A stretch of DNA of 23,566 bases from Candidatus Fervidifonticultor secundus (GTDB lineage: Bacteria > Sysuimicrobiota > Sysuimicrobiia > Sysuimicrobiales > Humicultoraceae): contig JAVKIP010000031.1 in the NCBI GenBank assembly GCA_031459385.1, forward strand, positions 1-23,566. Direction: 5' to 3'. The translations under genes were made by a program, and so were the position numbers. Position 1 is the first letter of the stretch. Each line of letters begins with the position of its first letter. This document shows, piece by piece, positions 182 to 20,816 of this stretch. Below the pieces are notes generated by a model. The model worked only from the letters and a program-made list of their open reading frames with translations, made no database searches and was not told the origin of the DNA.

Positions 182-212
182 GGGCGACCACAGGCGGCAC
201 TTGGAGAGCGTC

Positions 213-641: not shown

Positions 642-655
642 GAGGGCGAGTGGTC

Positions 656-2646: not shown

Positions 2647-2656
2647 GGGCGGGAGC

Positions 2657-3779: not shown

Positions 3780-3793
<14 letters not shown>
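2657..3793 (+). CDS. cpaE: CpaE/TadZ pilus assembly ATPase (receiver-like domain + MinD/ParA domain)
   Basis: Deviant Walker A SKGGVGKST, LVDGDLYFGD, VVVDA, and a receiver-like N-terminus (LRRAMKAGARECL). GTG start. Confidence 0.92.
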
Positions 3794-5075
<1,282 letters not shown>

Positions 5076-5088
5076 GGAGGAGACCGTC

Positions 5089-6027: not shown

Positions 6028-6039
6028 AGGGGCACACCC

Positions 6040-6999: not shown

Positions 7000-7024
7000 C
7001 GCCGGCGGGCCACGGAGGACGCAG

Positions 7025-8554
7025 ATGCAGATCTCCCGACGACGTCGTTCCTACACTGCACGGCGAGGAGGCTCAGCCGCAATGCGTACGCTGCTTTCGA
7101 GTGCACTCATCCTCATGCTGGCGACGATCGCGGCGCCGGTGGTAGACGCCAACGAGACCGTCGTCGTGCAGGTCAACCACGGGCTGCTGCTCAAGGTGCG
7201 CGGGGCCGAGCGCGTGGTGGTGGCCGCGCCGGAGATCGCCGACGTCAACCTGATCACCCGCAACGAGCTGATGATTATCGCCAAGAAGGTTGGCGAGACC
7301 ACGCTCAGCGTATGGGACGCGCGAGGGTTCACCACCTACCGGATCCTGGTGGTCACCGGTCCCGCCGAGGACCTGGTGCAGGTTATCACGCAGGTGCTGC
7401 GCGAGCCCCGGCTCACGGTGCGCGTGGTCGGGCAGGTGGTGGTCCTCGAGGGGTCGGTGAAGACCGAGGAGGACAGGAAGCGGGCGGAAGAGATCGCCCG
7501 GGCCCTGGCGACCGGCCGCACGGTGGCCAACGCGCTGACGGTGGAGCAAACGAAGGCGACCGAGGAGGAGCAGCGGCGGCAGGCGGCCGAGGCCGCCCGC
7601 CGGGCCCGCGAGACGCAGCTGCGCGAGGCGCTCCACGGCCTGCAGGTGACGGTCCGGCTGCTCGATCTGGAGACGGCCATCATCGAAGGCGGCGTCGCCA
7701 CCCAGGAGGACCTGCGGCGCCTGGAGAGCATCGCCCGGACGTTCGTGAAGAACGTCACGGTGCTGGTGCGCGTGACCGCGCCGCTGCAGATCCGCGTCGA
7801 CACCACGTTCGTCGAGCTCGACCGCACCGCGCTGCAGCAGATGGGGGTGGAGTGGGGTGGCGGCCAGGCGACCGATCCGTTCCTCACCGACCCGTTCGCC
7901 TTCCACTTCGGGAACCTGAACCAGGGCTGGCCCCTGACGCCGCTGCAGCTGCTGGTGGCGCGGCTGCGGGCGCTGGAGGCCCGCGGGGCGGCCCGGACCC
8001 TGGCGAACCCGCGGGCGGTGGTGATGCAGGGCCGGCCGGGCAAGCTGCTGGTGGGCGGCGAACTTCCCATTCCCATCGTGCAGGCCGACCGCACGGCCGT
8101 CCAGTTCAAGGAGTTCGGGATCCGGCTGGAGTTCTGCGTGAACTCGCTGCTCCGCAAGCAGGGCGAGCAGCTCGATTGCGTGCCCTCCCCGGGCATGGGA
8201 GGCGGCGACGGCCTGACGATGGACCTGCGCACCGAGGTGAGCACGCTGGACTTCTCCAACGCCATCGTGGCGGCAGGCTTCCTGATCCCGACCATCCGCA
8301 AGCGCGAGGTGCAGACGTCGGTGATGCTGCGGCCTGGCGAGTTCCTGCTGCTCGGCGGCCTGATCCAGCGCGAGCAGAGCCAGAACGTCCAGAAGGTGCC
8401 GCTTTTGGGCGACATCCCCGTCCTGGGTGCGCTGTTTCGCAGCACCCGTTTCCAGCGCGGCGAGACCGAGCTGGTGATCTTCGTCTCGCCCAGCGTGGTC
8501 GCGCCGACCCGGGAAGCACCGCCGACCCCGGCGGAGCCCACATCGTCGCCGTAG
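7025..8554 (+). CDS. cpaC: Tad secretin CpaC/RcpA with N-terminal pilus domain and BON-like domains
   Basis: Signal peptide (RTLLSSALILMLATIAAPVVDA), T2SS-T3SS_pil_N-like segment (VAAPEIADV...KKVGETTLSVWD), two BON-like repeats, and secretin motifs LVGGELPIP, FKEFGIRL, KVPLLGDIPVLGALFRS, ETELVIFVSP. Start is ATG 7025 or ATG 7082; both have an SD. Confidence 0.92.
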   Translation: MQISRRRRSYTARRGGSAAMRTLLSSALILMLATIAAPVVDANETVVVQVNHGLLLKVRGAERVVVAAPEIADVNLITRNELMIIAKKVGETTLSVWDARGFTTYRILVVTGPAEDLVQVITQVLREPRLTVRVVGQVVVLEGSVKTEEDRKRAEEIARALATGRTVANALTVEQTKATEEEQRRQAAEAARRARETQLREALHGLQVTVRLLDLETAIIEGGVATQEDLRRLESIARTFVKNVTVLVRVTAPLQIRVDTTFVELDRTALQQMGVEWGGGQATDPFLTDPFAFHFGNLNQGWPLTPLQLLVARLRALEARGAARTLANPRAVVMQGRPGKLLVGGELPIPIVQADRTAVQFKEFGIRLEFCVNSLLRKQGEQLDCVPSPGMGGGDGLTMDLRTEVSTLDFSNAIVAAGFLIPTIRKREVQTSVMLRPGEFLLLGGLIQREQSQNVQKVPLLGDIPVLGALFRSTRFQRGETELVIFVSPSVVAPTREAPPTPAEPTSSP

Positions 8555-8576: not shown

Positions 8577-8981
8577 ATGTACGTGATCAACCGGACGCGC
8601 GGCACGTACCTGGGCGTGGACGTGCAGGTGGCCAACTCCTTCCGGGCGCGGCTGCTCGGCCTGCTGGCGCACCGCGACCTCCGGTTCGGCGACGGGGTCT
8701 GGCTGGTGCCGTGCAACTCCGTGCAGACGTTTGGGATGCGCCACCCGATCGATGTGGTGTTTCTCGACGTCCGGCGGCACGTGGTGCGGGTGGTGGCGGG
8801 CGTGCGCCCGGCGCGGCTCATCTTGCCGGTGGCCGGGGCGCACTCGGCCCTGGAGCTGCCGGCTGGGGTAGTCCGCAGCAGCGAGACGCGGATCGGCGAT
8901 GTCATCGAGTTCGTGGCGGATCCGGTCGCCCGCATGGAGGAGGACAGGATGGCAGGGACCGCGCGCAGGGGCAGTCCGTAG
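8577..8981 (+). CDS. DUF192 family protein
   Basis: VANSFRARLLGLL...VPCNSVQTFGMRHPIDVVFLD...ALELPAG matches the DUF192 pattern often found in tad loci. GGGAGG SD. Confidence 0.82.
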   Translation: MYVINRTRGTYLGVDVQVANSFRARLLGLLAHRDLRFGDGVWLVPCNSVQTFGMRHPIDVVFLDVRRHVVRVVAGVRPARLILPVAGAHSALELPAGVVRSSETRIGDVIEFVADPVARMEEDRMAGTARRGSP

Positions 8982-9057: not shown

Positions 9058-9648
9058 CTACGGGGAACAGCGCCGGACGTGGCGCGTGCCCTCCACGTCG
9101 CAGCGTCCCGGGCACGGGTCCCAGGTGATCTTCAGCGTGTCGCGGTCGTAGACAGCAACGCCGTACCAGCGGGCCGGCGAGACGACCTCCACGTACGCCG
9201 GAAGGGCCAGGCCGTGCCGGCGCAGCGTGGCGCCGACCTCATGAGCCTTCGCCATGGCCAGCCGCCGCGCGCGGGCCGCGGTGGTGTCGGCGGCCAGTTC
9301 GATCGTCGCGCGCACCTGGGGCCGGTCGGCCCCCACCGTGCGCACGCACACCCGAGCGGGCTGCTCTGGGGCCAGGACCTGGCGGATAGGGTCGAGTACC
9401 GCCGGCCCGACCGTCGGCCGCGTAGCATCTGCTGGCGCAGCGACTTCGGGCACCGGCTGCGGCCGGCTGAGCACATAGTCCGAGACGGCATAGCCTGCGG
9501 CGAAGAACGCCAGCACCAGTAACGCGCGCACTGCCAGCGCCACCCTTTGCTGGCGCAGGCGGATCTCTTCCTGGATGCGGGCCCGGGCTTCGAGGCGGAA
9601 GCGCTCTTCTGCGTAGATGCGCTGCCGGAGTTCGGGCGAGAGGCTCAC
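9058..9648 (-). CDS. Hypothetical single-pass membrane protein
   Basis: GAGGAGG SD 8 nt before GTG 9648. Charged helical N-terminus, TM segment (VALAVRALLVLAFFAAGYAVSDYVL), Pro-rich linker and a C-terminal domain with 4 Cys. No family recognised. Confidence 0.75.
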   Translation of the reverse strand: MSLSPELRQRIYAEERFRLEARARIQEEIRLRQQRVALAVRALLVLAFFAAGYAVSDYVLSRPQPVPEVAAPADATRPTVGPAVLDPIRQVLAPEQPARVCVRTVGADRPQVRATIELAADTTAARARRLAMAKAHEVGATLRRHGLALPAYVEVVSPARWYGVAVYDRDTLKITWDPCPGRCDVEGTRHVRRCSP

Positions 9649-10260: not shown

Positions 10261-10671
10261 GTGCTGAGCGGCCTCTGGGGAAGGCAGCGGCGTCCTGGCG
10301 CGAGGGGCTTCACCCTCATCGAGCTGGTCGTCGTGCTGGCGATCCTGGGCATTCTGCTCGCGCTCGCCGTGCCCAGGTACCTCGGCGCCCACCGGCGGGC
10401 GTACAAGAAGGAAGGGCAGACGCTGCTGCAGGAGCTGAAGACGCTCTCGTGGGCATACTATCAGGAACGTAACGTCTTCACCAGCAATCTCAGTGCGCTG
10501 GGGTTCGCGATGCCGTCGGGCGCCAGCTGGAACGTACCGTCGGGCACCCCCGACGGCAGTACCGTCATCACCTGGACTCTGGACGGTGCGAGCGGCACGC
10601 CGGTGCAGGGGAGCACGTGCTCCGTCATCCTGAGCGCAGACGGCTCTGCAAGCCAGGGATGCACGTTCTGA
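10261..10671 (+). CDS. Type IV (IVa-like) pilin / pseudopilin with N-terminal methylation motif
   Basis: Basic leader RQRRPGARG|FTLIELVVVLAILGILLALAVPRY with E5, and a C-terminal Cys pair (STC...QGCTF). AAGGGGG SD, GTG start. Confidence 0.93.
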   Translation: MLSGLWGRQRRPGARGFTLIELVVVLAILGILLALAVPRYLGAHRRAYKKEGQTLLQELKTLSWAYYQERNVFTSNLSALGFAMPSGASWNVPSGTPDGSTVITWTLDGASGTPVQGSTCSVILSADGSASQGCTF

Positions 10672-10725: not shown

Positions 10726-12006
10726 TCACTGCACGGCTTTGTAGGCGTTGATCCGGCCGTGCGCCCAATACCTGCCGGTGCCGCTGATCCGATCCGCGGT
10801 AGCCTCGATCTTGTTCCGGATGCAACTGTTCGTCGCGCATCCGGTGGCGGCCCATCGGGTCCAGCGCAGCCCTGCCAGTCCCGCCACGAACGGCGTGGCC
10901 ATTGAGGTCCCGCTCAGGGCGTCGTAGTCCTGCTTGTAGGCGTACTGCGTGGTCAGGTAGACGGGCGAATTCGGCATCGTCGAGAGGATGGCCACGCCCG
11001 GCGCGGCCACGTCCACCCAGGTCTTGTCCCAGTTGGAGAACGACGCCTTGCGGTCGGTCTGGTCGGTGGCGGCCACCGCGATGCACTCGGGGTAGGCGGC
11101 CGGGTACGTCTTGGCTTTCGTGCCGCTGTTGCCCGCCGCGCACGCGAGTACCGAGCCGGCCTGCCAGGCATTGACGACGGCGGACTCCAGAAAGATGGAC
11201 GGCAGGCTGCCGCCGAGGCTCAGGTTGATGACATGGGCGCCGTTCTGCACCGCCCACATGATGCCGTTCATGACGGCGTAGTAGCTGCCGGAGCCGGCCG
11301 CGTTGAGCACCTTCGCCGCCAGCAGGCTCACGCCGGGGTCGCCGGTGCCCCCGAGAGTCCCCCAGTTCATGCCCGCCACCCCGATGGTGTTGTTCGTCAG
11401 CGCGCCGATGATCCCCGCGACGTGCGTGCCGTGTCCGTTGTCATCGTCAGCGTCGCCGTCGCCGTTGACGTAATCCACCTGCGCGGCGACCGGAGGGAGG
11501 TCAGGGTTGCTGGTGTCGATGCCGGTGTCCACCACCGCGATCTTGACCGTGTTCCATCCCCTGGTGATGTCCCACGCCCCGGCGGCCTGGATCGGCCCGA
11601 ACCCCCACTGCGTGACGCACCCGTTCCGTGACGACGGGTAGCACGAGGTCGCGTAGTGGGGGTCGTCGGGTGCTGCCAGGGCCGTGGCGATCCCGTTCAG
11701 TTCCACGCGCTCCACCGCCGGATGGCGCGCGAGGCTGTGCAGCAGCGCCTCGAGCCGCGCCGGCGAGACCTTGAGCAGGTGCACGTCCAGGCCAGCGATG
11801 CGGCCGACCGCGCGCGCGCCCAGCGCCCGGGCGAATACATCGGCGTTCACGCTGAGGTTGGGCCTGAACTTGACGAGGATTTCGTCGGCCACGTACTGAC
11901 CGGCCGGCAGGAGCCCCGGCGACGGCGCGGGGGCCCCTCCGCCGGGGCCAGCCAGGGCCAGCAAGACCAGCACGAGGACGATCAATGCTCCCCCGAGGTT
12001 GCGCAT
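10726..12006 (-). CDS. Secreted S8 subtilase (thermitase-like) with propeptide
   Basis: Signal peptide, propeptide (DEILVKFR...VERVELN), catalytic triad VVDTG / NGHGTHVAG / GTSMATP and oxyanion AAGN. ATG 12006 is preferred because ATG 12015 directly abuts the GGAGGAG SD. Confidence 0.95.
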   Translation of the reverse strand: MRNLGGALIVLVLVLLALAGPGGGAPAPSPGLLPAGQYVADEILVKFRPNLSVNADVFARALGARAVGRIAGLDVHLLKVSPARLEALLHSLARHPAVERVELNGIATALAAPDDPHYATSCYPSSRNGCVTQWGFGPIQAAGAWDITRGWNTVKIAVVDTGIDTSNPDLPPVAAQVDYVNGDGDADDDNGHGTHVAGIIGALTNNTIGVAGMNWGTLGGTGDPGVSLLAAKVLNAAGSGSYYAVMNGIMWAVQNGAHVINLSLGGSLPSIFLESAVVNAWQAGSVLACAAGNSGTKAKTYPAAYPECIAVAATDQTDRKASFSNWDKTWVDVAAPGVAILSTMPNSPVYLTTQYAYKQDYDALSGTSMATPFVAGLAGLRWTRWAATGCATNSCIRNKIEATADRISGTGRYWAHGRINAYKAVQ

Positions 12007-12173
12007 TGACCTCATCTCCTCCCGTGTCGCGCCGGAACCAGGGATAGCAGTTCGCGTCTGCCGAACGGCCGTCCTGCCGGGCAGGGCCGGGGTCTCCAGA
12101 CCGGCTGCACAGGAACCCTGCCTGACGCCGGCGTAAGCAACTGCAAACCCGGCGCGCCGGTGGGGGGCGGCCT

Positions 12174-15100
12174 ATGGACACCACAGTGGTCACGCGACAA
12201 CCCCTGCGCGAGGTGAGCCTCGACGACCGCTACCTCCTCGAGGAAGGAACGGTCTACCTTCGCGGCATCCAGGCCCTGGTGCGGTTTCCGCTGGACGCGA
12301 GCCACCGCGACCGCCGGGCCGGGCTGCGGATCGGCACGTTCATCAGCGGCTACCCCGGGGCGCCGCTGGCGGGCTACGACCTGGCCCTACAGCAGATCCG
12401 CCCGCTGCTGGAGCAGCACGACATCGTCCACGTCCCGGCCACCAACGAGGACCTGGCGGCGACGGCCATCATGGGCACCCAGATGCTCGACGCCCACCCG
12501 CACGCGCGCTACGACGGGGTCACGGCCATCTGGTACGGCAAGGGGCCGGGGGTCGACCGTAGCGGCGACGCGTTGAAGCACGGCAACTTCGCTGGCACCA
12601 GCCGCCACGGCGCGGTGGTGCTCCTGGCGGGGGAAGACCATGAAGCCAAGAGCTCGTCGTTCCCCTTCCAGGACGACTACGCCTTCATGAGCGCGGGCAT
12701 CCCGGTGCTCTACCCGGCGTCGGTGCGCGAGTTCCTCGATCACGGCATCCACGCGGTGCACCTGTCGCGGTTCTCGGGGTGCTGGGTGGCCCTCAAGCTG
12801 GTGGCGGCTCTGGCCGACGGCAACGAGACGATCGAGGTGAGCCCCGACCGGCCGGCGGTGGTCGTGCCCCAGGTGGAGATCGACGGCCGGCCGTTCCGCA
12901 AGGTGGCCGACTTCGCTTTCTTCGGCACGAAGAACATCGAGCTGGAGCGGCACCTGTACTACGAGCGTCACCGGGCCGTGGTGGAGTACGCCCGGGCCAA
13001 CCGGCTCGACCGCGTGGAGGTGGACCCGCCCGACGCCCGGCTGGGGATCGTCACGGCCGGCAAGAGCTACGCCGATATGCGGCAGGCCCTGCTCGACCTG
13101 GGCCTCGACGACGAGGCGCTGCGGCGCTGCGGCATTCGCCTGCTGCGCGTGGGGCTCATCTACCCCGTCGACCGGCGCGCCATCCGGGAGTTCGCCCGGG
13201 GGCTGCGCGAGGTGGTGGTGGTGGAAGAGAAGCGGGGGTTCCTGGAGGCGCAGGTCAAGGAGGCGTTGTGCGGGCAACCGGTGGCGGTCGTGGGGAAGTT
13301 CGACGACACCGGGCGCCCGCTGTTCCCCATCCAGGGCGGGATGGACAGCGACCTGATCGCCGAGCGGCTGGCCGAACGGCTGCGGCCGTACGTGGGCGAC
13401 CACCCACCGATGCACCGGCGCCTGGCGGTCGTGCAGGCGATCCGGGCCCGCCGCTACGACGCCCACCCCGCGCGCACCCCCAACTACTGCTCGGGGTGCC
13501 CGCACAACGTCTCAACCCTGCTGCTGCCGGACATGGTGGCGTCGGGCAGCCCGGGGTGCCACTCGTTCGCGTCCCTGATCGACCAGCCCCAGCGGCGCAT
13601 CGTCGCCATGACCCAGTACGGCGGGGAAGGAGCCCCGTGGGTGGGGCTGCTGCCGTTCACCGACCGGACGCACCTGGTGGCCAACATGGGCGACGGCTCG
13701 TTCTTCCATTCGGGTTCGCTGAGCATCCGGTTCGCCGCCGCCGTGGGGGCGCACGTCACGTTCAAGATCCTCTACAACGGCGCCATCGCCAACACCGGGG
13801 CCCAGCGTCCGGTGGGTGGCAAGCCGGTGGCCGACCTGACCCGCCTGCTGGCGGCGGAGGGAGTGCGGGCCATCGCCCTGGTCACAAAGCAACCCGCGGC
13901 GTACCGGCGGGCCGCCCTGGCGCCCATCACCCGCGTCTATCACGTCGACCGGCTGGAGGAGGCGCTGCAGCGACTGCGCGAGGTGCCGGGCACGACCGTC
14001 ATGATCTACGACGAGATGTGCGCCAACGAGCGCCGCCGGTTGCAGAAGCGAGGCCGGCTGCCGGCGCCGACCCGCTTCGTGTTCATCAACGAGGACGTCT
14101 GCGAGAACTGCGGGCACTGCGGCAGCCTCACCAACTGCATGTCGCTACAGAAGGTCGACACCGAGTTCGGCCCCAAGACGCAGGTGCACCAGGCGTCGTG
14201 CAACACCGACTACCGGTGCCTGGGCGGCGACTGCCCGTCGTTCGTCACCGTCGACAGCCCGGCCGGCCTGCGGCGGCCGCAGCCGCCGCACCTGGAGGCC
14301 GATGCGGTCCCCGAGCCCGCCCGGCGCGTCGGACTGGAGGAGCCCTATCACATCTACATCCCCGGCGTCGGCGGCACCGGGGTCATCACGATCAACGCCC
14401 TGCTGGGCTACGCGGCCCTCATGGACGGTCGCTACGTCATGGGCTACGACCAGACCGGCGCCGCGCAGAAGTGGGGCCCGGTGCTGTCCAGCCTGATCAT
14501 CGCCCCGCAGGCCGGCGCGGTGGCGGCCAGCAAGGTCGGCGCGGGCAAGGCCGACCTGTACCTGGTGCTGGACATCCTGGGTGGCATCGCGCCCGCCAAC
14601 CTCGACCGGTGCGACCCCGAGCGCACGGTGGCGGTGGTCAACCGCACGCTGTTCCCCACCGGTGAGGTGATCCGCAACGCCTGGTATACGGTCGACGTCG
14701 ACGGCATGGTGGCCACCGTCGAACGCTATACCCGCGTGGCCGCCAACGTGGTGGTCGACGGCCGACAGCTGGCCGAGGCGCTGTTCGGCGATCACATGGC
14801 CACGAACCCGTTCATGCTGGGGGTCGCCTACCAGCACGGCCTGCTACCGCTGTCGGCGGCCAGCCTTGAGGCCGCCATCCGCCTGAACGGCGTGCAGGTC
14901 GAGCAGAACCTGCAGGCGTTCCGCTACGGACGGCTCTTCGCCGCCGACCCGGCGCGGGTACTGGCGCTCGTCGAGCGCCGGCGCCGGCCGGCCGACGAGG
15001 AGCAGGCGGCACAAGCCGTGCGCCTGGGCGGAGCCCGGGCGCGGGCGTACGCGGCCCTGCTGGCGCGCTGCGTCCACTTCGACGAGGAGTCGCGCCGCAT

Positions 15101-15722
15101 GCTGGCGGTGCGGGTGGCCGAACTGATCGACTACCAGAATATGGCCTACGCCACCCGCTACGTGGACGCGGTGCTGCAGGTGGCCGCCCGCGAGCAGGCC
15201 GCCCGGCCGGGGGCGGTGGCCATCACCCGCGCGGTCATCGCTTCCCTCTACAAGCTGATGGCCTACAAGGACGAGTACGAGGTGGCGCGGCTGTACCTGG
15301 AGCCGGCGTTCGGCCAGCGCCTGCGCGAGACGTTCGCCGACCCCCGACGTGTCGTCTTCCACTTCCACCCGCCGCTGTTGCGGGCGCTGGGGCTGCGGCA
15401 CAAGCTGGCGGTGGGGCCGTGGGTCCGGCCGCTGCTGCGCCTGCTGCGGGCGCTGCGGGGGGTGCGCGGCACGCCACTGGACCTGTTCGGCTACGCCGCG
15501 CTGCGGCGCGAGGAGCGGGCGCTGGTGGGGTGGTACCTCGAGCTGTTGGACCGCGCCCTGGCCGCGCTGCGGCCGGAGACCTACGACCTCGTCCTCCAGG
15601 TGGCCCGCCTGCCCGACGGCATCCGGGGCTACGAAGGGATCAAGCGGACTGCGCTGGCTACGGTACGCCGGCAGGCGGCCGAGCTGCTGGACCGCCTCGC
15701 CGACCAGGCGGTCCCGGCCTGA
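12174..15722 (+). CDS. Indolepyruvate:ferredoxin oxidoreductase family protein, fused alpha/beta single chain
   Basis: GIQALVR, ISGYPGAPL, WYGKGPGVDRSGD, RTPNYCSGCPHN, TPP motif GDGSFFHSG, ferredoxin CENCGHC...C / CNTDYRC...CPSF, beta subunit GVGGTGVIT and C-terminal KLMAYKDEYEVARL. Confidence 0.95.
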   Translation: MDTTVVTRQPLREVSLDDRYLLEEGTVYLRGIQALVRFPLDASHRDRRAGLRIGTFISGYPGAPLAGYDLALQQIRPLLEQHDIVHVPATNEDLAATAIMGTQMLDAHPHARYDGVTAIWYGKGPGVDRSGDALKHGNFAGTSRHGAVVLLAGEDHEAKSSSFPFQDDYAFMSAGIPVLYPASVREFLDHGIHAVHLSRFSGCWVALKLVAALADGNETIEVSPDRPAVVVPQVEIDGRPFRKVADFAFFGTKNIELERHLYYERHRAVVEYARANRLDRVEVDPPDARLGIVTAGKSYADMRQALLDLGLDDEALRRCGIRLLRVGLIYPVDRRAIREFARGLREVVVVEEKRGFLEAQVKEALCGQPVAVVGKFDDTGRPLFPIQGGMDSDLIAERLAERLRPYVGDHPPMHRRLAVVQAIRARRYDAHPARTPNYCSGCPHNVSTLLLPDMVASGSPGCHSFASLIDQPQRRIVAMTQYGGEGAPWVGLLPFTDRTHLVANMGDGSFFHSGSLSIRFAAAVGAHVTFKILYNGAIANTGAQRPVGGKPVADLTRLLAAEGVRAIALVTKQPAAYRRAALAPITRVYHVDRLEEALQRLREVPGTTVMIYDEMCANERRRLQKRGRLPAPTRFVFINEDVCENCGHCGSLTNCMSLQKVDTEFGPKTQVHQASCNTDYRCLGGDCPSFVTVDSPAGLRRPQPPHLEADAVPEPARRVGLEEPYHIYIPGVGGTGVITINALLGYAALMDGRYVMGYDQTGAAQKWGPVLSSLIIAPQAGAVAASKVGAGKADLYLVLDILGGIAPANLDRCDPERTVAVVNRTLFPTGEVIRNAWYTVDVDGMVATVERYTRVAANVVVDGRQLAEALFGDHMATNPFMLGVAYQHGLLPLSAASLEAAIRLNGVQVEQNLQAFRYGRLFAADPARVLALVERRRRPADEEQAAQAVRLGGARARAYAALLARCVHFDEESRRMLAVRVAELIDYQNMAYATRYVDAVLQVAAREQAARPGAVAITRAVIASLYKLMAYKDEYEVARLYLEPAFGQRLRETFADPRRVVFHFHPPLLRALGLRHKLAVGPWVRPLLRLLRALRGVRGTPLDLFGYAALRREERALVGWYLELLDRALAALRPETYDLVLQVARLPDGIRGYEGIKRTALATVRRQAAELLDRLADQAVPA

Positions 15723-15785
15723 CCCCGGGCCCGCGCCGCGTCCGGACGGGCATCAGGGACGGATGTCAGGAAAGGGGGGGAGACC

Positions 15786-16679
15786 GTGCACGTACTCATA
15801 CAGCAAGTCCTGCGTTCCCCGCGCGCCCTGGCGATGCTGGGGCTCGTGGTGCTCGTGGCGATGTCCGCCACGGCGGTGGCGGCGGAGCGCCGCGCCCGGG
15901 GCGGCGACGTGCTGGCGCCGCTGCTCCGCGCCGTCGCCGACGGCCGCATCGAGGTGGTGGAGCTGGGCGCGACGCTCAAGGAGACGACGCCCGTGATCCA
16001 GCTCCCGCCGCCGTTTGCCAACACGCCGGGGTTCAAGAAGCACGTCATCTCGGCGTTCGACGAGAAGGGGCCCGCCTGGAAGTGGTACTGGTACGAGATC
16101 GGCGAGCACGTGGGCACCCACTTCGACGCGCCCTGCCACTGGGTGACAGGGAAGGACAAGCCCTGCCTCCACCGGCTCGACCCGAGGACGTTGATCGGTC
16201 CCATCGCGGTGGTGGATATCACGAAGGAGGCGGCGGCCAACCCCGACTTGGTGGTCACCCGGGAGATGCTCCTGGCCTGGGAGCAGCGGTGGGGCCGGAT
16301 TCCCCGCGGGGCATGGGTCTTCCTGCGTAGCGGATGGTCCAAGAAGTACGCCGCACCCAAGGAGTACTTCAACGTGCGCGACGACGGGCCGCACACCCCC
16401 GGCATGGGTGCCTCGGGCGCCCGGTTCCTGGTGCAGGAGCGCGACATCGTGGGGGTCGGCGTGGAGACCATCGGGACCGACGCCGGGCAGGCGTTCCGCG
16501 AGCAGCCGCCCTTCCCCAACCACGCCATCATGCACGGCGCGGGGAAGTACGGCCTGACCTCGCTGTTCAACCTGGACCGCCTCCCGATCACCGGCGCGGT
16601 CCTGGTGGTCCTGCCCATGAAGGTCGAGGACGGGACCGGCAGCCCTGTCCGGCCCATCGCCCTGGTGCCCCGGCGTTAG
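15786..16679 (+). CDS. Cyclase-family metal-dependent amidohydrolase, isatin hydrolase-like, with N-terminal signal peptide
   Basis: Metal motif EHVGTHFDAPCHW, plus TPVIQLPP, GPAW, HWVTGKD, GPHTPG, IGTDAGQA, PPFP and GTGSPVR blocks that I recall from isatin hydrolases. Confidence 0.88.
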   Translation: MHVLIQQVLRSPRALAMLGLVVLVAMSATAVAAERRARGGDVLAPLLRAVADGRIEVVELGATLKETTPVIQLPPPFANTPGFKKHVISAFDEKGPAWKWYWYEIGEHVGTHFDAPCHWVTGKDKPCLHRLDPRTLIGPIAVVDITKEAAANPDLVVTREMLLAWEQRWGRIPRGAWVFLRSGWSKKYAAPKEYFNVRDDGPHTPGMGASGARFLVQERDIVGVGVETIGTDAGQAFREQPPFPNHAIMHGAGKYGLTSLFNLDRLPITGAVLVVLPMKVEDGTGSPVRPIALVPRR

Positions 16680-16696
16680 TCTGGCGCAGGCGCCGG

Positions 16697-17539
16697 TCAG
16701 GCGGACGGTGTCTCGGCGCTGCCGGCAGCCGGCGTCGAGACACCGTCCCGTTGCTCCAGGAACTCCTGCAGCGCGGTGTTGAACCGCTCCGCTTCCTCCA
16801 ACTGAGGGTTGTGGCCGCTGTGGTGAAAGGGCACCAGCCGCGCCCCGGGGATCCGCTGGGCCAGGGCCACCGCGCCCCCGTAGCGCTGCTTGCGGTCGTG
16901 GACGCCGTGGATCACCAGGGTCGGCACCCGGATCGCCGGCAGGAGGTCGTGCAGGTCGACGGCCTCCAGGTCCCGCGCCAGCATCTTCATGGCGTACGCC
17001 GGCCACTCTAGCATCGTCGCCAGCACGGCCTGGCGGGTCGCCGGCCCGGGGTCCTTGTAGAAATACGTCTCGAGCAGCCGCGCGGACGCCTCGGCCTTGT
17101 TGGTGGCCATCTCCCGGACATAGTCGCGCCACACCGCCGGCGCGAAGCCCACCTCGTCGTCATGCCCAACCAGGCGCGCACCGGTGCTGACCAGGACCAG
17201 GCGCAGGGGCCAGTGTGGATACCGTACCGCGAACGTGACGCCCACGTAGCCGCCAATGCCGTGGCAGACCAGCGAGCACGGCTCACGGGCCAGTGCCGCG
17301 ACCACCACCGCCAGATCCTCGGTGAACCGCGCCACCGTGTGACCGGTGCGTGGCTTGTCGCTCTGTCCGTGGCCACGCAGGTCGTAGGCGATGGTCCGAA
17401 AGCGGTCGGCCATGGTGTAGACCTGCTGTTCCCATACCTCGTGGCTTCCGGCCCCGCCGTGCACGAAGACCACCGGGTGGCCGGCGCCGAACTCCTCGTA
17501 GTAGAGGCGGACGCCGGGTTCGACCTCGACGAATGCCAT
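16697..17539 (-). CDS. Alpha/beta-hydrolase fold protein with Gly at the nucleophile position
   Basis: True start is probably MAFVEVEPG (ATG 17539); the track ORF from 18085 is an upstream extension overlapping the SBP gene. Motifs VFVHGG, DLRGHGQS, elbow VCHGIGG, PTLVIHGVHD and SGHNPQLE. Confidence 0.88.
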   Translation of the reverse strand: MAFVEVEPGVRLYYEEFGAGHPVVFVHGGAGSHEVWEQQVYTMADRFRTIAYDLRGHGQSDKPRTGHTVARFTEDLAVVVAALAREPCSLVCHGIGGYVGVTFAVRYPHWPLRLVLVSTGARLVGHDDEVGFAPAVWRDYVREMATNKAEASARLLETYFYKDPGPATRQAVLATMLEWPAYAMKMLARDLEAVDLHDLLPAIRVPTLVIHGVHDRKQRYGGAVALAQRIPGARLVPFHHSGHNPQLEEAERFNTALQEFLEQRDGVSTPAAGSAETPSA

Positions 17540-17544
17540 GACGC

Positions 17545-18537
17545 TCAGAGCCTCACCGGCACGAACTCCGCCGTGTAGTGGTCCGATAGCGGCCAGCGCA
17601 CCGTGAGGACGCCCAGCTCCAGCAACGTGTCCTGCATGAACTTCATCGCGTCGACGTCGAAGCGACCGTCGATGGACCACAGCGGCCGGGTGTTCTCGTA
17701 GGCCCGGCGCGTCGCGGGCTCGGGCCATCCGATGCCGCGGGCGGCGATCCGGATCGTCTCGTCGGCGTTGTCGCGGCAGAACCGCTGGGCCCTGAAGTAG
17801 CCGCGCAGCACCTTGCGCAGGTCTTCCTTGCGCTTGCGGATCACGTCGCTGGTGGCGTAGGCCACCTCGCTGATCCACTTGGGCGTGACCTCGTCCAGGC
17901 GCAGGATGATCTTGCCGACGCCCAGGTGCTCGGCCAGGGCCCCGGCGTCGCCGAAGATGAACGCCTGGACCTCGCCCCGCCGCAGGGCCGCCATCTGCGC
18001 GTCGAGCCCGCCCAGGCCCACGATGCGGACGTCGCGCACCGGGTCCCACCCCTGCTGCTTGGCCAGCAGCCGCGCGAACACCCACGTGGTGGCGCCCACG
18101 GCGGTGACGCCGATGGACTTGCCCCGCAGGTCGGCCACGCGGCCGATGCCCGGCGCGCCGATGAGCGTGAAGTGGTTCTTCTCGGTGATGACCGCCACGG
18201 CGCGGATGGGCGCGCCCTGGGCGCGGAAGACCAGGGGGTCGGTGGCGCCGGTCAGCCCGAGGTCGGCGGTGCCGGCCAGCACGCCGCGCAGCAGCGGGGG
18301 CCCGCCGGTGAACGTCACCACCTCGGGCGCGATGCCTTCCTCGCGGAAGAAGCCTCTCTCGACGCCGACCAGCACCGGTGCCATGATGGCCAGATCACCC
18401 AGCACGACCGGGCCCAGCTTGAACGGCACCGTTTGCTGGCCCCACGCCACACCGATCCGCAGCGCCGGTACCACCGCGCCCGCCGCCAGCGTGCTCACCG
18501 CTCCCTGCAGGAACCGTCGTCGCGTCACTGTCGCCAT
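17545..18537 (-). CDS. ABC transporter substrate-binding protein, NitT/TauT (SsuA/THI5-like), Tat signal
   Basis: Twin-arginine signal TRRRFLQG, plus GFFREEGI, DLRGKSIGVT and AALRRGEVQA. Confidence 0.9.
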   Translation of the reverse strand: MATVTRRRFLQGAVSTLAAGAVVPALRIGVAWGQQTVPFKLGPVVLGDLAIMAPVLVGVERGFFREEGIAPEVVTFTGGPPLLRGVLAGTADLGLTGATDPLVFRAQGAPIRAVAVITEKNHFTLIGAPGIGRVADLRGKSIGVTAVGATTWVFARLLAKQQGWDPVRDVRIVGLGGLDAQMAALRRGEVQAFIFGDAGALAEHLGVGKIILRLDEVTPKWISEVAYATSDVIRKRKEDLRKVLRGYFRAQRFCRDNADETIRIAARGIGWPEPATRRAYENTRPLWSIDGRFDVDAMKFMQDTLLELGVLTVRWPLSDHYTAEFVPVRL

Positions 18538-18559
18538 GCCGCTCCCCCCTTGTGTGGAT

Positions 18560-19294
18560 TCAGCGCCACGCCCCGAGCCGTCGGTTCAGGTGGTCGAGCC
18601 CGAGCACGGCCGCGATGGAGAACACCGAGATCAGCGCCGTGGCCGCCAACAGCGCTGCCGCGTTGAACGCCAGCGCGAGCTGCTGCATGAGGAAGCCCAT
18701 GCCGCGGATGCCGGCGAACATCTCGGTGAGCAGCGCGCCCACGAAGGCGAACACGGCTCCCACCCGCATGCCGGCCAGGATCGCCGGCAGGGCCGCAGGC
18801 ACCACCACCTTCACGTACACCTGCCAGCGGGAGGCGCCCATGGACGTGGCCACCACCAGCCACAGCGGCTCCACGTCGCGCACCCCGCCGGTGACCTGGA
18901 CGACGATGGGGAAGACGGCGAACAGGGCCGCCCCCAGCATCGCCGCGGGCGGGCGTACGCCCAGGCTCAGGACGATCCACGGGACCAGCAGGATCTTGGG
19001 CAGGCTGTAGGCCGCGACCAGATAGGGCATGACGACCTCCCGCAGCGTCCGCGCCGACCCCAGGACCAAGCCCAGCACCACGCCGATCGTCACAGCCGCG
19101 GCGTACCCGGCCAGTGTCTTCAGCAGCGTCTCGCCCAGACGGGGGAGTGCCTGCAGGCTCACCGGCCCCAGCGCCGCGGCCACCGCGCTGGGCGGCGGCA
19201 CGAAGAGCGGGTCTACCAGTCCCCGGCGGCTGGCCAGCTCCCACCCCAGGCCGAGCAGCGCCAGCGTGGTCGCCTGGACCAGGCGGATCTTCAC
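18560..19294 (-). CDS. ABC transporter permease (NitT/TauT family)
   Basis: GTG start overlapping the upstream TGA (GTGA). FVPPPSAV, LPKILLVP and EAA-like VATSMGASRWQVYVKVVVPAALP. Confidence 0.9.
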   Translation of the reverse strand: MKIRLVQATTLALLGLGWELASRRGLVDPLFVPPPSAVAAALGPVSLQALPRLGETLLKTLAGYAAAVTIGVVLGLVLGSARTLREVVMPYLVAAYSLPKILLVPWIVLSLGVRPPAAMLGAALFAVFPIVVQVTGGVRDVEPLWLVVATSMGASRWQVYVKVVVPAALPAILAGMRVGAVFAFVGALLTEMFAGIRGMGFLMQQLALAFNAAALLAATALISVFSIAAVLGLDHLNRRLGAWR

Positions 19295-20037
19295 TCGCTC
19301 CACCGGCGCACCCGGGCCTCCACCCGCCCCGCGGCCGCGTCGACGACCAGGGCCACCGCAGCCATCAACGCCGCCAGTGCCACGTACTCGGGCGTGCGGA
19401 GCAGGTTGTAGACATGGTTGATCATGAAGCCCACCCCGGCCCGCGAGCCCAGCAGTTCGCCCGCCAGCACACCCACGGTGCACAGCGCCAGACCCGAGCG
19501 CAGCCCGCTGGCGAGCGTGCCCGCCATGGCCGGCAGCAGCACTTTCCAGTAGATCGTCCACCGGCCCGCGCCCATGGCCCGCGCCACCGTCACCAGGTGC
19601 GGGTCGACCTGCTGTACGCCGGCCAGCACCGCCAGCACGATGGGGAAGAACCCCAGCAGGAAGCCGAATGCCACCTTGGAGGCGGTGCCCAGCCCGAAGA
19701 GCAACATCAGCGACGGGTACCAGACCACGCTGGGGACCGCGTAGAGGCCGGCCACGACCGGCTCGTACGCCCGCGCGAGCACGCGCCAGAAGCCCATCGC
19801 GAACCCCAGTCCCAACCCGGCCGCCACCGCCAGGGCGTAAGCCGCCGCGACCGTCTGCAGCGTGATGGCCAGGTGCTCTCCCAGCGGCGGGAGCAGCGGA
19901 TCGCGCAGCAACCGTACGAACGCGCCCGGCAGGGTCGATGGCGCGACGTAGAGCACGGGGTCCAGCGGACGCGCCACCGCCTCCCACGCGGCCAGCACGC
20001 CCGCCAGGAACGCGACGCGCCAGGCCGCCACTCTCAT
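19291..20037 (-). CDS. ABC transporter permease (NitT/TauT family)
   Basis: ATG 20037 overlaps the ATPase stop (ATGA). VPSVVWYP, VARAMGAGRWTIYWKVLLP and GELLGSRAGVG. Confidence 0.9.
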   Translation of the reverse strand: MRVAAWRVAFLAGVLAAWEAVARPLDPVLYVAPSTLPGAFVRLLRDPLLPPLGEHLAITLQTVAAAYALAVAAGLGLGFAMGFWRVLARAYEPVVAGLYAVPSVVWYPSLMLLFGLGTASKVAFGFLLGFFPIVLAVLAGVQQVDPHLVTVARAMGAGRWTIYWKVLLPAMAGTLASGLRSGLALCTVGVLAGELLGSRAGVGFMINHVYNLLRTPEYVALAALMAAVALVVDAAAGRVEARVRRWSE

Positions 20038-20816
20038 GATCCGTTTTGGGCCATGGCCCGCAGCGACTCTTCCCTGATCTGCTGCCACAGCCGCGCCCGC
20101 AGGGCCGCGGCCTCGGGCGTGTTGAGGTCGCGAGGGAACGGCAGGGGCACCGGCACGATGTCCTTGACGCGGCCGGGGCGCGCCGTCATGACCACGATCC
20201 GGTCGGACAGAGCGATGGCTTCCTGAATGCTGTGGGTCACGAAGACGATAGTCTTGCGGGCCTGCGCCCGGATCTCCCCGAGCCACTCGCCCATCAGCAG
20301 CCGCGTCTGCTCGTCGAGCGCCCCGAACGGTTCGTCCATGAGCAGGATCGGGCTGCCCAACGCCAGCGCCCGGGCGATCGCTACCCGCTGGCGCATGCCG
20401 CCCGAGAGCTCGCGGGGGTACTTGCGCTCGAACCCGGCCAGCCCCACCGACTCCAGCAGCCGGCGGGCCAGCGCCTCTCGCTCCCGCGGGGGTACCCCCA
20501 GCAGTTCCGGGCCGAAGCAGACGTTGTACAGCGCAGTGCGCCACGGGAACAGCCCAGGGTCCTGGAACACCATGGCCACCAGCCTGGGGTCCGGTCCCCG
20601 GAGCACCGTGCCATTGATGGTGATGGTCCCGGCATCGGGTGCCAGCAGGCCGCCAAGCATGGCCAGCACTGTGGACTTGCCGCACCCGCTGGGCCCGAGG
20701 ACGGTCAGGAACTCCTGCTCGCCCACTGAGAGCGTAATGTCCTCCACGGCGCGCACCGGTCCGGTGGCGGTGGTGTACGTCTTGGTGACGCCCCGCAGGA
20801 CGATGTGCTCGCCCAT
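20034..20816 (-). CDS. ABC transporter ATP-binding protein (NitT/TauT family)
   Basis: Walker A GPSGCGKS, signature LSGGMRQR, Walker B LLMDEPFGALD and H-loop VTH. Confidence 0.96.
   Translation of the reverse strand: MGEHIVLRGVTKTYTTATGPVRAVEDITLSVGEQEFLTVLGPSGCGKSTVLAMLGGLLAPDAGTITINGTVLRGPDPRLVAMVFQDPGLFPWRTALYNVCFGPELLGVPPREREALARRLLESVGLAGFERKYPRELSGGMRQRVAIARALALGSPILLMDEPFGALDEQTRLLMGEWLGEIRAQARKTIVFVTHSIQEAIALSDRIVVMTARPGRVKDIVPVPLPFPRDLNTPEAAALRARLWQQIREESLRAMAQNGS

What the first reader, a model, noticed from the sequence alone, without database searches (positions are those of the whole stretch)
12174..20816. Candidate aromatic/indole catabolic island: fused IOR, exported isatin-hydrolase-like enzyme, ABC importer and nucleophile-less hydrolase
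Seen: two tightly packed operons converge with only 17 nt between their stops (16679/16697). Known: isatin hydrolase opens isatin to 2-aminophenylglyoxylate, and IOR-family enzymes oxidatively decarboxylate aryl 2-oxo acids to acyl-CoA. An IOR plus isatin hydrolase pair occurs in proteobacterial auxin-degradation (iad-type) loci. Inference: here the ring could be opened outside the cytoplasm, the anionic product imported by the NitT/TauT-type ABC system and converted by the IOR to an anthraniloyl-CoA-like product. No Rieske dioxygenase or regulator is present, so this may be an oxygenase-independent, compartmentalised variant. The link between the two operons is unproven.
Basis: partly seen in the sequence, partly recalled or inferred. 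Interest (0 to 1): 0.7.

Follow-up and report, generated by a model that had tools for sequence, protein, structure and literature searches.

The report
Exported isatin hydrolase, importer and oxidoreductase
A hot-spring bacterium seems to open the indole-derived ring compound isatin outside the cell, import the resulting acid and turn it into a CoA ester, which would fill a step in indole breakdown that the papers I read leave unassigned.

Summary
Seven genes lie at 12174-20816 in two operons whose stops are 17 nt apart: a fused 1182-aa IOR, an isatin-hydrolase-type cyclase with a signal peptide, a Ser-less alpha/beta hydrolase, and a four-gene NitT/TauT-class ABC importer.

- All seven genes stay together in a different order in same-genus relatives. 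IOR and the ABC operon also adjoin in a sister genus.
- The cyclase is far closer to solved isatin hydrolases (E 5e-83) than to KynB (about 4e-4).
- A signal peptide was seen only in this genus and in one unrelated lineage. In both, the gene adjoins a homologous ABC operon.
- In 46 of 79 other loci the cyclase adjoins a thiamine-dependent 2-oxoacid enzyme. In six it is a split IOR, twice within clusters that look like the 2-aminobenzoyl-CoA pathway.
- The window's genome carries such a cluster on another contig.

Against: no substrate has been tested. Sister-genus cyclases are cytoplasmic and sit beside a tryptophan-dioxygenase-like gene. The hydrolase is confined to this genus and truncated in one relative. 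The route is not oxygenase-free overall.

Verdict: new variant of a known kind, interest 0.6.

The parts
12174..15722 (+). Fused indolepyruvate:ferredoxin-oxidoreductase-family protein (IorA-like thiamine/Fe-S part, POR domain and DUF6537), 1182 aa. Proposed arylglyoxylate (isatinate) oxidoreductase that forms an aroyl-CoA.
   Evidence: Pfam and NCBIfam: NF009589 1281.7 bits against cut-off 816. It aligns with a split IorA over residues 55-694, including the MGDG and Cys motifs, and with the DUF6537 part of IorB. No solved relative at E <= 0.001.
15786..16679 (+). Isatin-hydrolase-type cyclase-family metallohydrolase, 297 aa, with an N-terminal signal peptide.
   Evidence: PDB isatin hydrolase A at E 5.2e-83 and isatin hydrolase B at 4.9e-74; KynB only about 4e-4. 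The motifs HVGTHFDAPCH and WKW are present. GLTS stands in place of GLAS/GLQC (motif definitions from PMC6117287).
15786..15881 (+). Predicted Sec-type signal peptide, MHVLIQQVLRSPRALAMLGLVVLVAMSATAVA|AE. The cleavage site is my reading, not a program's prediction.
   Evidence: Strong SD before the GTG at 15786. Equivalent leaders in G001, G002 and L138. No such leader in sister-genus orthologues. By inspection, only L084 has one among the 72 other loci whose N-terminus could be read.
16680..16696 (.). 17-nt gap between the two converging stop codons.
   Evidence: No terminator-like hairpin was found here.
16697..17539 (-). Cytoplasmic alpha/beta-fold protein without the serine nucleophile (CHGIGG). 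The aligned His and Asp positions are kept. 280 aa; last gene of the ABC operon.
   Evidence: Pfam Abhydrolase_1. Alignment to PDB esterases shows Gly at the Ser position. G001, L138 and L139 share the motif; nine homologues at 29-37% identity keep GxSxG. dN/dS is 0.19-0.21.
17545..18537 (-). Substrate-binding protein of the NMT1/SsuA fold with a twin-arginine leader, 330 aa. Proposed binder of isatinate or another arylglyoxylate.
   Evidence: PF09084 at 78 bits. TIGR01728 scores 112 against cut-off 163.5, and the taurine model scores 30 against 304. Orthologues lie beside IOR in G019. It is 33% identical (E 7e-53) to the binding protein beside the other exported cyclase.
18560..19333 (-). ABC permease 2 (start approximate).
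   Evidence: PF00528; 76% identical in G001/G002.
19291..20055 (-). ABC permease 1 (start approximate).
   Evidence: PF00528; 80% identical in G001/G002.
20034..20816 (-). ABC ATPase of the NitT/TauT class, first gene of the minus-strand operon.
   Evidence: PF00005. The closest named models (TauB, SaoA) all score below their cut-offs.

Best explanation
This is a two-compartment salvage and catabolic module for isatin or a close anilide/lactam analogue.

Proposed steps:
1. The cyclase-family metallohydrolase is exported and opens isatin to isatinate (2-aminophenylglyoxylate) outside the cytoplasm.
2. The Tat-exported NMT1-type binding protein and its ABC transporter import this aryl 2-oxo acid.
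3. The fused IOR oxidatively decarboxylates it to 2-aminobenzoyl-CoA.
4. That product enters the flavin monooxygenase/reductase and beta-oxidation-like cluster on contig C1 of the same genome.

The older core is IOR plus a NitT/TauT-class importer for aryl 2-oxo acids. This genus added the cyclase, which gained a signal peptide, and a Ser-less alpha/beta-fold protein whose role is unknown.

Shown here: gene content, family placement, signal peptides, conserved linkage, and the presence of the downstream cluster.
Inferred: every substrate, ligand and product.
For: Cyclase identity:
- PDB isatin hydrolases match at E 5e-83 to 7e-74; KynB matches at about 4e-4.
- The metal motif and the WxW motif are present.

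Linkage:
- G001, G002 and the metagenome contigs L138 and L139 keep the genes in the order IOR(-), then ATPase-perm-perm-SBP-(ABH)(+), then IH(-). L139 ends before the IH gene.
- In G019 the IOR converges on the orthologous ABC operon, whose binding protein is 72-73% identical, with no IH or ABH between them.
- G036, G039 and G033 carry ATPase-perm-perm-NMT1 SBP-IOR as one operon.

Export goes with the importer:
- Signal peptides occur on the IH of the window, G001, G002 and L138, and on L084 and L203.
- All six adjoin an ABC operon whose binding proteins are homologous across the two lineages (33% identity, E 7e-53).
- By inspection, none of the other 71 loci whose N-terminus could be read has such a leader.
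- In the quick tree the genus-g1 group is sister to cytoplasmic orthologues (support 99). L084 and L203 form a separate group.

The cyclase product is plausibly a 2-oxo acid:
- 46 of 79 other IH loci have a thiamine-dependent 2-oxoacid enzyme within 1.5 kb: 34 split ComDE-like, 6 full-length, 6 split IorA+IorB(DUF6537).
- In L071 and L112 the IH-IorAB genes sit beside a FAD_binding_3+Oxidored_FMN fusion, ACAD, ECH and other CoA-pathway genes.

Downstream and related context:
- G000 C1 carries the same fusion (46% identical) followed by ECH, RidA, ACAD, a PaaK-like ligase and TDO.
- All 8 IOR-bearing relatives have this fusion.
- In G012 the IOR follows a benzoate-CoA-ligase-family gene (TIGR02262, 605 bits against cut-off 375). 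This points to an aroyl-CoA product.
Against: - No biochemical data exist for any of the seven proteins.
- The window's cyclase lies in a 22-row branch of the quick tree. Apart from the window's own clade and L084/L203 it holds only actinobacterial and Chloroflexota-like rows. The one row from a species with characterised enzymes (L137, Roseibium aggregatum, GLQC) lies in the other branch. The signature is GLTS, not GLAS or GLQC.
- Its nearest cytoplasmic orthologues (70-76% identical, same motifs) sit directly upstream of a TDO-like gene in 5 of 5 sister-genus loci. That suggests a formamidase-type role there.
- Binding-protein homologues at 47-57% identity in metagenomes lie beside ECH, CoA-ligase and Liv-type genes, with no IH or IOR.
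- The f5 binding proteins beside IOR are only 23% identical, E 3e-7.
- L084 and L203 have no IOR within the DNA fetched. G094 has a fused IOR on another contig and no match to the monooxygenase/reductase model.
- The C1 fusion scores below the cut-off of its best NCBIfam model, salicylyl-CoA 5-hydroxylase/oxidoreductase (904 against 1078 bits).
- Related genomes are not independent samples.
Confidence: 0.5

Rival explanations
1. The architecture is as proposed but the chemistry is different or broader. The ABC-IOR core imports and oxidises another aryl 2-oxo acid, such as phenylglyoxylate, hydroxy- or methoxy-phenylglyoxylates from lignin, or arylpyruvates. The exported cyclase hydrolyses some other extracellular anilide, lactam or formamide whose product enters that route.
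For: - In f5 genomes the IOR-ABC operon is flanked by a 4-hydroxybenzoate 3-monooxygenase-family gene (489 bits against cut-off 351), a LigM/DesA-like demethylase (below cut-off) and, in G039, meta-cleavage genes.
- Genus g11 has the orthologous IOR and ABC genes with no exported cyclase.
- The IH signature is a variant, GLTS.
Against: - Hydrolysis of isatin is the simplest way for this enzyme family to yield a 2-oxo acid.
- IH-IorAB pairs sit in 2-aminobenzoyl-CoA-type clusters.
- G000 has that cluster.
Confidence: 0.25
2. The cyclase is a kynurenine-pathway formamidase acting on N-formylkynurenine or a similar aryl formamide. Its place beside IOR and the ABC operon in this genus is a rearrangement accident.
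For: - Orthologues at 70-76% identity with identical active-site motifs lie directly upstream of a TDO-like gene in L023-L027, 5 of 5 loci.
- Three of the five also carry a creatininase-family gene, and four have trpD alongside.
- A kynureninase-like class V PLP gene, well below its model's cut-off, recurs near IH in 11 of 79 loci.
Against: - The arylformamidase model scores 22.7 bits against a cut-off of 223. The KynB I(L/I)E motif is absent.
- A signal peptide makes little sense for a partner of a cytoplasmic dioxygenase.
- This genus has lost the TDO-B type gene: one search finds only the other TDO type in G000, G001 and G002.
- Export plus ABC adjacency recurs in a second lineage.
Confidence: 0.1
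3. The two operons are unrelated neighbours. The ABC system imports a sulfonate, nitrate or pyrimidine-type ligand, as named members of its class do, and IOR plus cyclase act on cytoplasmic metabolites.
For: - The best NCBIfam hits of the transporter parts are SsuA-family, TauB/TauC and Sao models.
- The closest solved binding proteins are an exported protein of unknown function and SsuA.
Against: - All those models score below their cut-offs.
- IOR-ABC adjacency persists through three gene orders in three clades of the phylum.
- More distant homologues of the binding protein sit by CoA-pathway genes, not by sulfur genes.
- No sulfonate monooxygenase or desulfonation gene lies on the contig.
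Confidence: 0.08
4. The exported cyclase is an organophosphate triesterase of the cyclase-phosphotriesterase type, used to scavenge phosphorus.
For: A cyclase-family phosphotriesterase of Ruegeria pomeroyi is described in the abstract listed for PMC12135135. The PDB entry 8f9x, titled only 'Cyclase family protein', matches at E 8.5e-29. That 8f9x is this enzyme is my guess.
Against: - Isatin hydrolases match about 50 orders of magnitude better.
- No phosphate-uptake or Pho genes are nearby.
Confidence: 0.02

Closest known systems
Isatin hydrolases LaIHA, LaIHB (Labrenzia/Roseibium aggregata) and RsIHA (Ralstonia solanacearum); PDB 5nna, 5nnb, 4j0n, 5nmp
   Same: Full-length similarity at E 5e-83 to 7e-74. 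The metal motif HxG[T/A]HxDxPxH, the WxW pocket motif and the aligned His and Asp columns are shared.
   Different: - The signature is GLTS instead of GLAS or GLQC.
- It carries a signal peptide. The alignments to the solved chains start within the first 12 residues of each chain, so those chains leave no room for a leader.
- In the quick tree it lies on a different main branch from L137, the row from the Roseibium aggregatum iad-type locus.
iad auxin-degradation locus of Variovorax and Bradyrhizobium (iadR, iadA/B = iorA/B, iadCDE Rieske system, iadF-J, iadI cyclase, iadK binding proteins)
   Same: It combines an IOR-family enzyme, a cyclase-family amidase and an ABC binding protein in a route that ends at anthranilate-level compounds (passages of PMC12852158, PMC9613470 and PMC12633357).
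   Different: - The window has no Rieske oxygenase, MarR, thiolase, SDR or CoA ligase.
- The IOR is fused, not split.
- The binding protein has the NMT1 fold.
- The cyclase is exported.
- In Variovorax, iadC-K2 without iadA/B restored anthranilate formation (PMC12633357), so the role of the IOR there is open.
Aerobic 2-aminobenzoyl-CoA pathway: anthranilate-CoA ligase plus 2-aminobenzoyl-CoA monooxygenase/reductase (Azoarcus evansii, Arthrobacter Rue61a)
   Same: G000 C1 and the IH-IorAB loci L071 and L112 carry a FAD_binding_3+Oxidored_FMN fusion with ECH, ACAD and a CoA ligase. The pathway is described in passages of PMC3534580 and PMC6221969.
   Different: - Here the CoA ester would be made by oxidative decarboxylation of isatinate, not by an ATP-dependent ligase acting on anthranilate.
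- That the FAD+FMN fusion is the domain architecture of the Azoarcus enzyme is recalled from memory, not tested.
- The best NCBIfam model is salicylyl-CoA 5-hydroxylase/oxidoreductase, scored below its cut-off.
Phenylglyoxylate:acceptor oxidoreductase of Azoarcus evansii (recalled from memory; not seen in any call)
   Same: The proposed chemistry is the same: an arylglyoxylate plus CoA gives an aroyl-CoA and CO2.
   Different: It is a multi-subunit enzyme of another 2-oxoacid-oxidoreductase branch. No sequence comparison was made here.
NitT/TauT-class ABC importers (SsuABC, TauABC)
   Same: Same folds and operon make-up.
   Different: Every equivalog or subfamily model scores below its cut-off. 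The genomic partners are CoA-pathway and IOR genes, not sulfur-assimilation genes.
Bacterial kynurenine formamidase KynB (PDB 4co9, 4cz1)
   Same: Same cyclase fold and metal-binding motif.
   Different: E is only about 4e-4 over about 45 residues. TIGR03035 scores 22.7 against 223. The I(L/I)E motif with the second-metal glutamate is not present.

Membership tests
Isatin hydrolase (cyclase-fold Mn hydrolase) | Cyclase domain PF04199 with full-length similarity to solved isatin hydrolases | tested here: met
   PF04199 at 121 bits. 5nna matches at E 5.2e-83 over query residues 43-294.
Isatin hydrolase (cyclase-fold Mn hydrolase) | Metal motif HxG[T/A]HxDxPxH | tested here: met
   HVGTHFDAPCH; invariant in alignment A1. 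The motif is defined in PMC6117287.
Isatin hydrolase (cyclase-fold Mn hydrolase) | Aromatic pocket motif WxW/FxW on the swapped hairpin | tested here: met
   GPAWKWYW.
Isatin hydrolase (cyclase-fold Mn hydrolase) | Signature GLQC or GLAS | tested here: inconclusive
   The window and all its phylum relatives in A1 have GLTS. Counts among the 91 family rows: AS 42, TS 11, AG 11, TQ 9, QC 4, not matched by my pattern 14.
Isatin hydrolase (cyclase-fold Mn hydrolase) | Mn-dependent hydrolysis of isatin to isatinate | not testable with these tools
   Needs an enzyme assay.
Kynurenine formamidase KynB | Equivalog model TIGR03035 and the I(L/I)E motif | tested here: not met
   22.7 bits against cut-off 223. 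GLTS stands at that position.
Fused indolepyruvate ferredoxin oxidoreductase family (PRK13030) | Full-length match above the curated cut-off, with the thiamine motif, Cys clusters, POR domain and DUF6537 | tested here: met
   NF009589 at 1281.7 against 816. PF01558 and PF20169 are above their cut-offs. The MGDG and CxxC stretches align with a split IorA.
Fused indolepyruvate ferredoxin oxidoreductase family (PRK13030) | Activity on indolepyruvate or another defined 2-oxo acid | not testable with these tools
   No solved or named close relative was found.
Aliphatic sulfonate / taurine ABC importers (SsuABC, TauABC) | Binding protein and permease above the curated cut-offs | tested here: not met
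   SsuA_fam 112.3 against 163.5; TauA 30.2 against 304; TauC 92 against 342; TauB 204 against 357.
iad-type auxin degradation locus | Rieske oxygenase IadCDE with a MarR regulator, beside the IOR and the cyclase | tested here: not met
   No Rieske or MarR gene on the 23.6-kb contig. For comparison, the Roseibium iad-type locus is L137.
Alpha/beta-fold serine hydrolases | Nucleophile elbow GxSxG | tested here: not met
   CHGIGG in the window, G001, L138 and L139. Nine more distant homologues keep the Ser.

The most novel reading that the evidence does not exclude
An extracytoplasmic isatin hydrolase, a dedicated isatinate ABC importer and a fused IOR together turn isatin directly into 2-aminobenzoyl-CoA. 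The route skips free anthranilate and the ATP-dependent ligase. An exported hydrolase next to this importer has arisen at least twice. More widely, thiamine-dependent partners (split ComDE-like decarboxylases, full-length decarboxylase-type enzymes, IorAB) would be the enzymes that consume isatinate in bacterial indole and auxin breakdown, a step the papers I read do not assign.
Probability: 0.4. Interest if true: 0.72.

Novelty: new variant of a known kind. Interest (0 to 1): 0.6.

Why it matters
Isatin and isatinate are repeatedly detected in bacterial indole and auxin degradation. The passages I read of a 2018 review (PMC6221969) leave the role of isatin hydrolase open and name no enzyme that acts on isatinate. 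My library searches found no paper linking isatin hydrolase to a 2-oxoacid oxidoreductase or decarboxylase.

Three results make that step directly testable:
- The cyclase adjoins a thiamine-dependent 2-oxoacid enzyme in 46 of 79 loci.
- In six of those loci the partner is IorAB, twice within clusters that look like the 2-aminobenzoyl-CoA pathway.
- The window holds an exported-hydrolase, importer and IOR version of the same pairing.

The locus also gives a candidate ligand class, aryl 2-oxo acids, for a branch of NMT1/SsuA-fold binding proteins that is usually annotated as sulfonate or nitrate binders. Finally, it is an example of a cytoplasmic enzyme that gained a signal peptide when it moved next to an importer.

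Tried and rejected
- RNA evidence: the look-up of sequencing runs listed no RNA holder. The five holders are DNA runs labelled hot springs metagenome, and three are possible sources of this DNA. I did not lay reads.
- Solved structures: none was found for the IOR. The binding protein's best match is an uncharacterised exported protein, so neither gave a ligand clue.
- Promoters and terminators: the scan found no promoter-like site and nothing at the convergent gap.
- Earlier findings of this scan: nothing relevant.
- Literature: two searches on a fused IOR or on isatin hydrolase with a ferredoxin oxidoreductase gave nothing useful.
- Wider phylum search for the binding protein: it added no new holders. 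The phylum has only 94 genomes, all in one order.
- Second exported lineage: the fused IOR of G094 has housekeeping-type neighbours that tell nothing.
- Hydrolase as a decaying pseudogene: rejected for the window's species. dN/dS is 0.19-0.21, like its neighbours, and four full-length copies share the motif. In G002, however, it is truncated.
- Tree: the careful search did not finish in time, so only the quick tree (SH-aLRT support) is reported.

Full report
**What is there**

The window is a complete 23.6-kb contig of a 3.3-Mb metagenome-assembled genome of about 70% G+C. Third-position GC and Pfam/NCBIfam scans place seven genes at 12174-20816.

On the plus strand:
- A fused IOR-family protein of 1182 aa. 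NF009589 scores 1281.7 bits against a cut-off of 816. POR and DUF6537 domains are present.
- 63 nt downstream, a 297-aa cyclase-family protein. Its GTG start follows a strong ribosome-binding stretch.

On the minus strand, in one tight operon:
- an ABC ATPase;
- two permeases;
- an NMT1-fold binding protein with a twin-arginine leader;
- 5 nt after it, a 280-aa alpha/beta-fold protein whose true coordinates are 16697-17539.

The two stop codons are 17 nt apart. The rest of the contig holds a Tad pilus operon, a pilin, a subtilase, nadE and groEL. There is no Rieske gene and no dedicated regulator.

**The cyclase**

It matches solved isatin hydrolases at E 5.2e-83 (isatin hydrolase A), 4.9e-74 (isatin hydrolase B) and 7.4e-74 (5nmp). 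It matches kynurenine formamidases only at about 4e-4, over about 45 residues. The arylformamidase model scores 22.7 bits against a cut-off of 223.

Passages of PMC6117287 define three motifs for isatin hydrolases:
- the metal motif HxG[T/A]HxDxPxH, which is present;
- a WxW/FxW pocket, which is present;
- a GLQC/GLAS signature, where the window has GLTS, as do all its phylum relatives in alignment A1.

Membership of the isatin-hydrolase branch is therefore well supported by sequence. Isatin as the physiological substrate remains an inference.

**Signal peptide**

The N-terminus reads MHVLIQQVLRSPRALAMLGLVVLVAMSATAVA|AE. Same-genus genomes G001 and G002 and the metagenome contig L138 carry equivalent leaders: a charged start, a hydrophobic core and an AxA-like end.

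Orthologues in sister genera (70-76% identical) and in G038 start directly with the mature N-terminal helix. In 72 of the 79 loci from other phyla my gene caller gave an IH gene whose N-terminus could be read. By inspection only L084 has a leader. No signal-peptide program was available.

**Are the operons linked?**

Within the genus, G001, G002, L138 and L139 hold the same genes in another order: IOR(-), then ATPase-perm-perm-SBP-(ABH)(+), then IH(-). L139 ends before the IH gene. There IOR and the ABC operon diverge from a short shared intergenic region.

In genus g11:
- In G019 the IOR converges on the orthologous ABC operon (binding protein 72-73% identical), with neither IH nor ABH between them.
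- In G012 both pieces lie on short separate contigs. There the IOR follows an aldehyde dehydrogenase and a benzoate-CoA-ligase-family gene (TIGR02262, 605 bits against cut-off 375).

In family f5 (G036, G039, G033), ATPase-perm-perm-NMT1 SBP-IOR form one co-directional operon. It is flanked by a 4-hydroxybenzoate 3-monooxygenase-family gene, a LigM/DesA-like demethylase and, in G039, meta-cleavage genes. Those binding proteins are only 23% identical to the window's, so this is the same transporter class rather than an orthologue.

IOR orthologues occur in 8 of 41 genomes searched. Binding-protein orthologues occur in 5 of 41 and in 5 of all 94 genomes of the phylum. In short, IOR plus a NitT/TauT-class importer is the older, recurring pair in an aromatic-acid setting. 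The cyclase and the hydrolase were added in one genus.

**Where the cyclase came from**

In five sister-genus loci (L023-L027) the orthologue lies directly upstream of a divergent TDO-like gene, 5 of 5. A creatininase-family gene follows in three, and trpD-trpC-trpF lie divergently upstream in four; the fifth starts at a contig end. The window's genus lacks that TDO type.

The quick tree puts the four exported genus-g1 sequences as sister to these five cytoplasmic ones, with support 99. The gene therefore moved, gained a leader and lost its TDO partner. This weighs against a strict isatin reading, because the ancestral role may have been a formamidase-type one.

**A second, independent case**

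L084 (an unrelated bacterium of 45% G+C) and the metagenome contig L203 are related to each other: IH 75% and SBP 79% identical. Both have SBP-ATPase-perm-perm-IH in one direction, and both cyclases carry signal peptides. Their binding protein is 33% identical over its full length to the window's (E 7e-53). That is closer than the f5 proteins that adjoin IOR.

The only other NMT1-type system near a cytoplasmic IH, in G012 (L025), is a 24%-identical paralogue on the opposite strand. Export of the cyclase and adjacency to this type of importer thus go together in two lineages.

The genome behind L084 has a fused IOR, 45% identical, on another contig. It gave no match to the monooxygenase/reductase model.

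**What the cyclase product is likely to be**

A scan of GTDB species genomes confirmed 594 relatives and returned 80 loci. One of these is G001 itself. I clustered the neighbours and ran Pfam and NCBIfam on cluster representatives. In 46 of the 79 other loci a thiamine-dependent 2-oxoacid enzyme lies within 1.5 kb:
- 34 have a split pair resembling sulfopyruvate/phosphonopyruvate decarboxylase subunits, scored below the cut-offs of those models;
- 6 have a full-length TPP_N/M/C enzyme;
- 6 have a split IorA plus IorB(POR+DUF6537).

In L071 and L112 the IH-IorAB genes adjoin a 762-771-aa FAD_binding_3+Oxidored_FMN fusion, ACAD and ECH. MarR, an SDR, a CoA ligase and a thioesterase are spread between the two loci. 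L092 has ECH, ACAD, RidA, MarR and a thioesterase.

From memory, that fusion is the architecture of 2-aminobenzoyl-CoA monooxygenase/reductase. The pathway itself is described in passages of PMC3534580 and PMC6221969. The six remaining loci of the 33 without a thiamine-type partner that had less than 1300 nt upstream number four, so some partners may simply be off the contig.

A caveat is that a class V PLP enzyme (11 loci) and SNF symporters (9 loci) also recur. An amino-acid-derived 2-oxo acid is therefore an alternative source for the decarboxylase substrate.

**Downstream capacity in this genome**

Contig C1 of G000 carries, on one strand:
- the same fusion (721 aa, 46% identical to the L112 protein);
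- ECH, RidA and ACAD;
- a PaaK-like CoA ligase;
- a TDO of the other type.

Its best NCBIfam model is salicylyl-CoA 5-hydroxylase/oxidoreductase, at 904 bits against a cut-off of 1078. Matches to this fusion were found in 18 of 41 relatives, and full-length copies in all 8 IOR-bearing genomes. These genomes are related, so this is only a consistency check.

**The Ser-less hydrolase**

CHGIGG replaces GxSxG in the window, G001, L138 and L139. The aligned His and Asp positions are kept. The nine homologues of 29-37% identity that I checked in the phylum all keep the Ser.

dN/dS against three relatives is 0.19-0.21, within the 0.11-0.29 range of its neighbours. The protein is therefore maintained. 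G002, however, retains only about the last 100 residues. Its role is unknown, and I do not build it into the mechanism.

**Literature**

- The Variovorax iad cluster lists iadA/iadB as iorA/iorB and iadI as a cyclase-family protein (table passage of PMC12852158; figure legend in PMC9613470).
- PMC12633357 (passages) reports that iadC-K2, without iadA/B, restores anthranilate formation. It describes IadI as annotated kynurenine formamidase that may be a broad-specificity amidase.
- The Roseibium aggregatum cyclase sits in an iad-type locus with no IOR annotated in the stretch shown.
- Searches for isatin hydrolase together with ferredoxin oxidoreductase, for isatinate-related terms and for 2-aminobenzoyl-CoA with indolepyruvate found no paper that proposes the isatinate-to-CoA-ester step or an exported isatin hydrolase.
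- Subscription journals are outside this library. I opened no supplements.

**Verdict**

What is new is the arrangement: export, importer and a fused IOR. The enzyme families themselves are known. I rate it a new variant of a known kind, with interest 0.6. I put 0.5 on the full isatin-to-2-aminobenzoyl-CoA reading and a further 0.25 on the same architecture acting on a related substrate.

Noticed in passing
L023-L027 (G006, G017, G012, G009, G023): In sister genera the isatin-hydrolase-type gene forms an apparent operon with a divergent TDO-like gene (PF03301 at 96-105 bits for the whole protein; TIGR03036 at 121 against cut-off 391). In three of five loci a creatininase-family amidohydrolase follows, and in four of five trpD-trpC-trpF lie divergently upstream. 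This may be a route feeding anthranilate-level compounds back to tryptophan synthesis.
   Followed up: partly
L045-L123 (genome-contig loci): In 34 of 79 loci from Acidobacteriota, Gemmatimonadota, Chloroflexota and others, a split thiamine enzyme (about 188 aa plus about 202 aa, ComD/ComE-like, below cut-offs) lies directly upstream of the cyclase. A class V PLP enzyme (11 loci) and an SNF symporter (9 loci) often accompany it. It is a candidate isatinate decarboxylase operon.
   Followed up: partly
G000:C1:92548-99639 (L136): One operon on the minus strand holds a TDO, a PaaK-like CoA ligase, ACAD, RidA, ECH and a FAD+OYE fusion monooxygenase/reductase. It looks like tryptophan-to-anthraniloyl-CoA catabolism in the window's own genome.
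   Followed up: partly
L021:9229-9555 (G002): The Ser-less hydrolase gene is reduced to its last ~100 codons in one same-genus genome, while the six other genes are intact.
   Followed up: yes
window 201-8554 and 10261-10671: A complete Tad/Flp pilus operon (TadE, RcpC, TadG-like, CpaE with a receiver domain, CpaF, TadB, TadC, secretin), followed by a DUF192 gene at 8577-8981. A separate type IV pilin gene lies further on, at 10261-10671.
   Followed up: no
window 9058-9648 (-): A 196-aa ORF with coding-type GC3 and no Pfam match.
   Followed up: no
window 10726-12015 (-): A subtilase with a fervidolysin-type N-terminal prodomain, transcribed divergently from the IOR.
   Followed up: no
L041-L043 (G036, G039, G033): The IOR-ABC operon of family f5 sits among 4-hydroxybenzoate 3-monooxygenase-family, LigM/DesA-like demethylase and Amidohydro_2 genes. 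In G039 meta-cleavage genes are also present. This suggests that lignin-derived arylglyoxylates are the substrates there.
   Followed up: partly
L063, L067, L070, L086, L059 (Angelobacter/Terriglobia loci): A BlaR1/BlaI-type sensor-repressor pair lies just downstream of the TPP-TPP-IH operon, convergently (only BlaR was seen in L059).
   Followed up: no
window 12174-20816: Near-identical DNA is held by four runs of one study labelled hot springs metagenome. Three of them are possible sources of this DNA, so this is not independent evidence of habitat.
   Followed up: no
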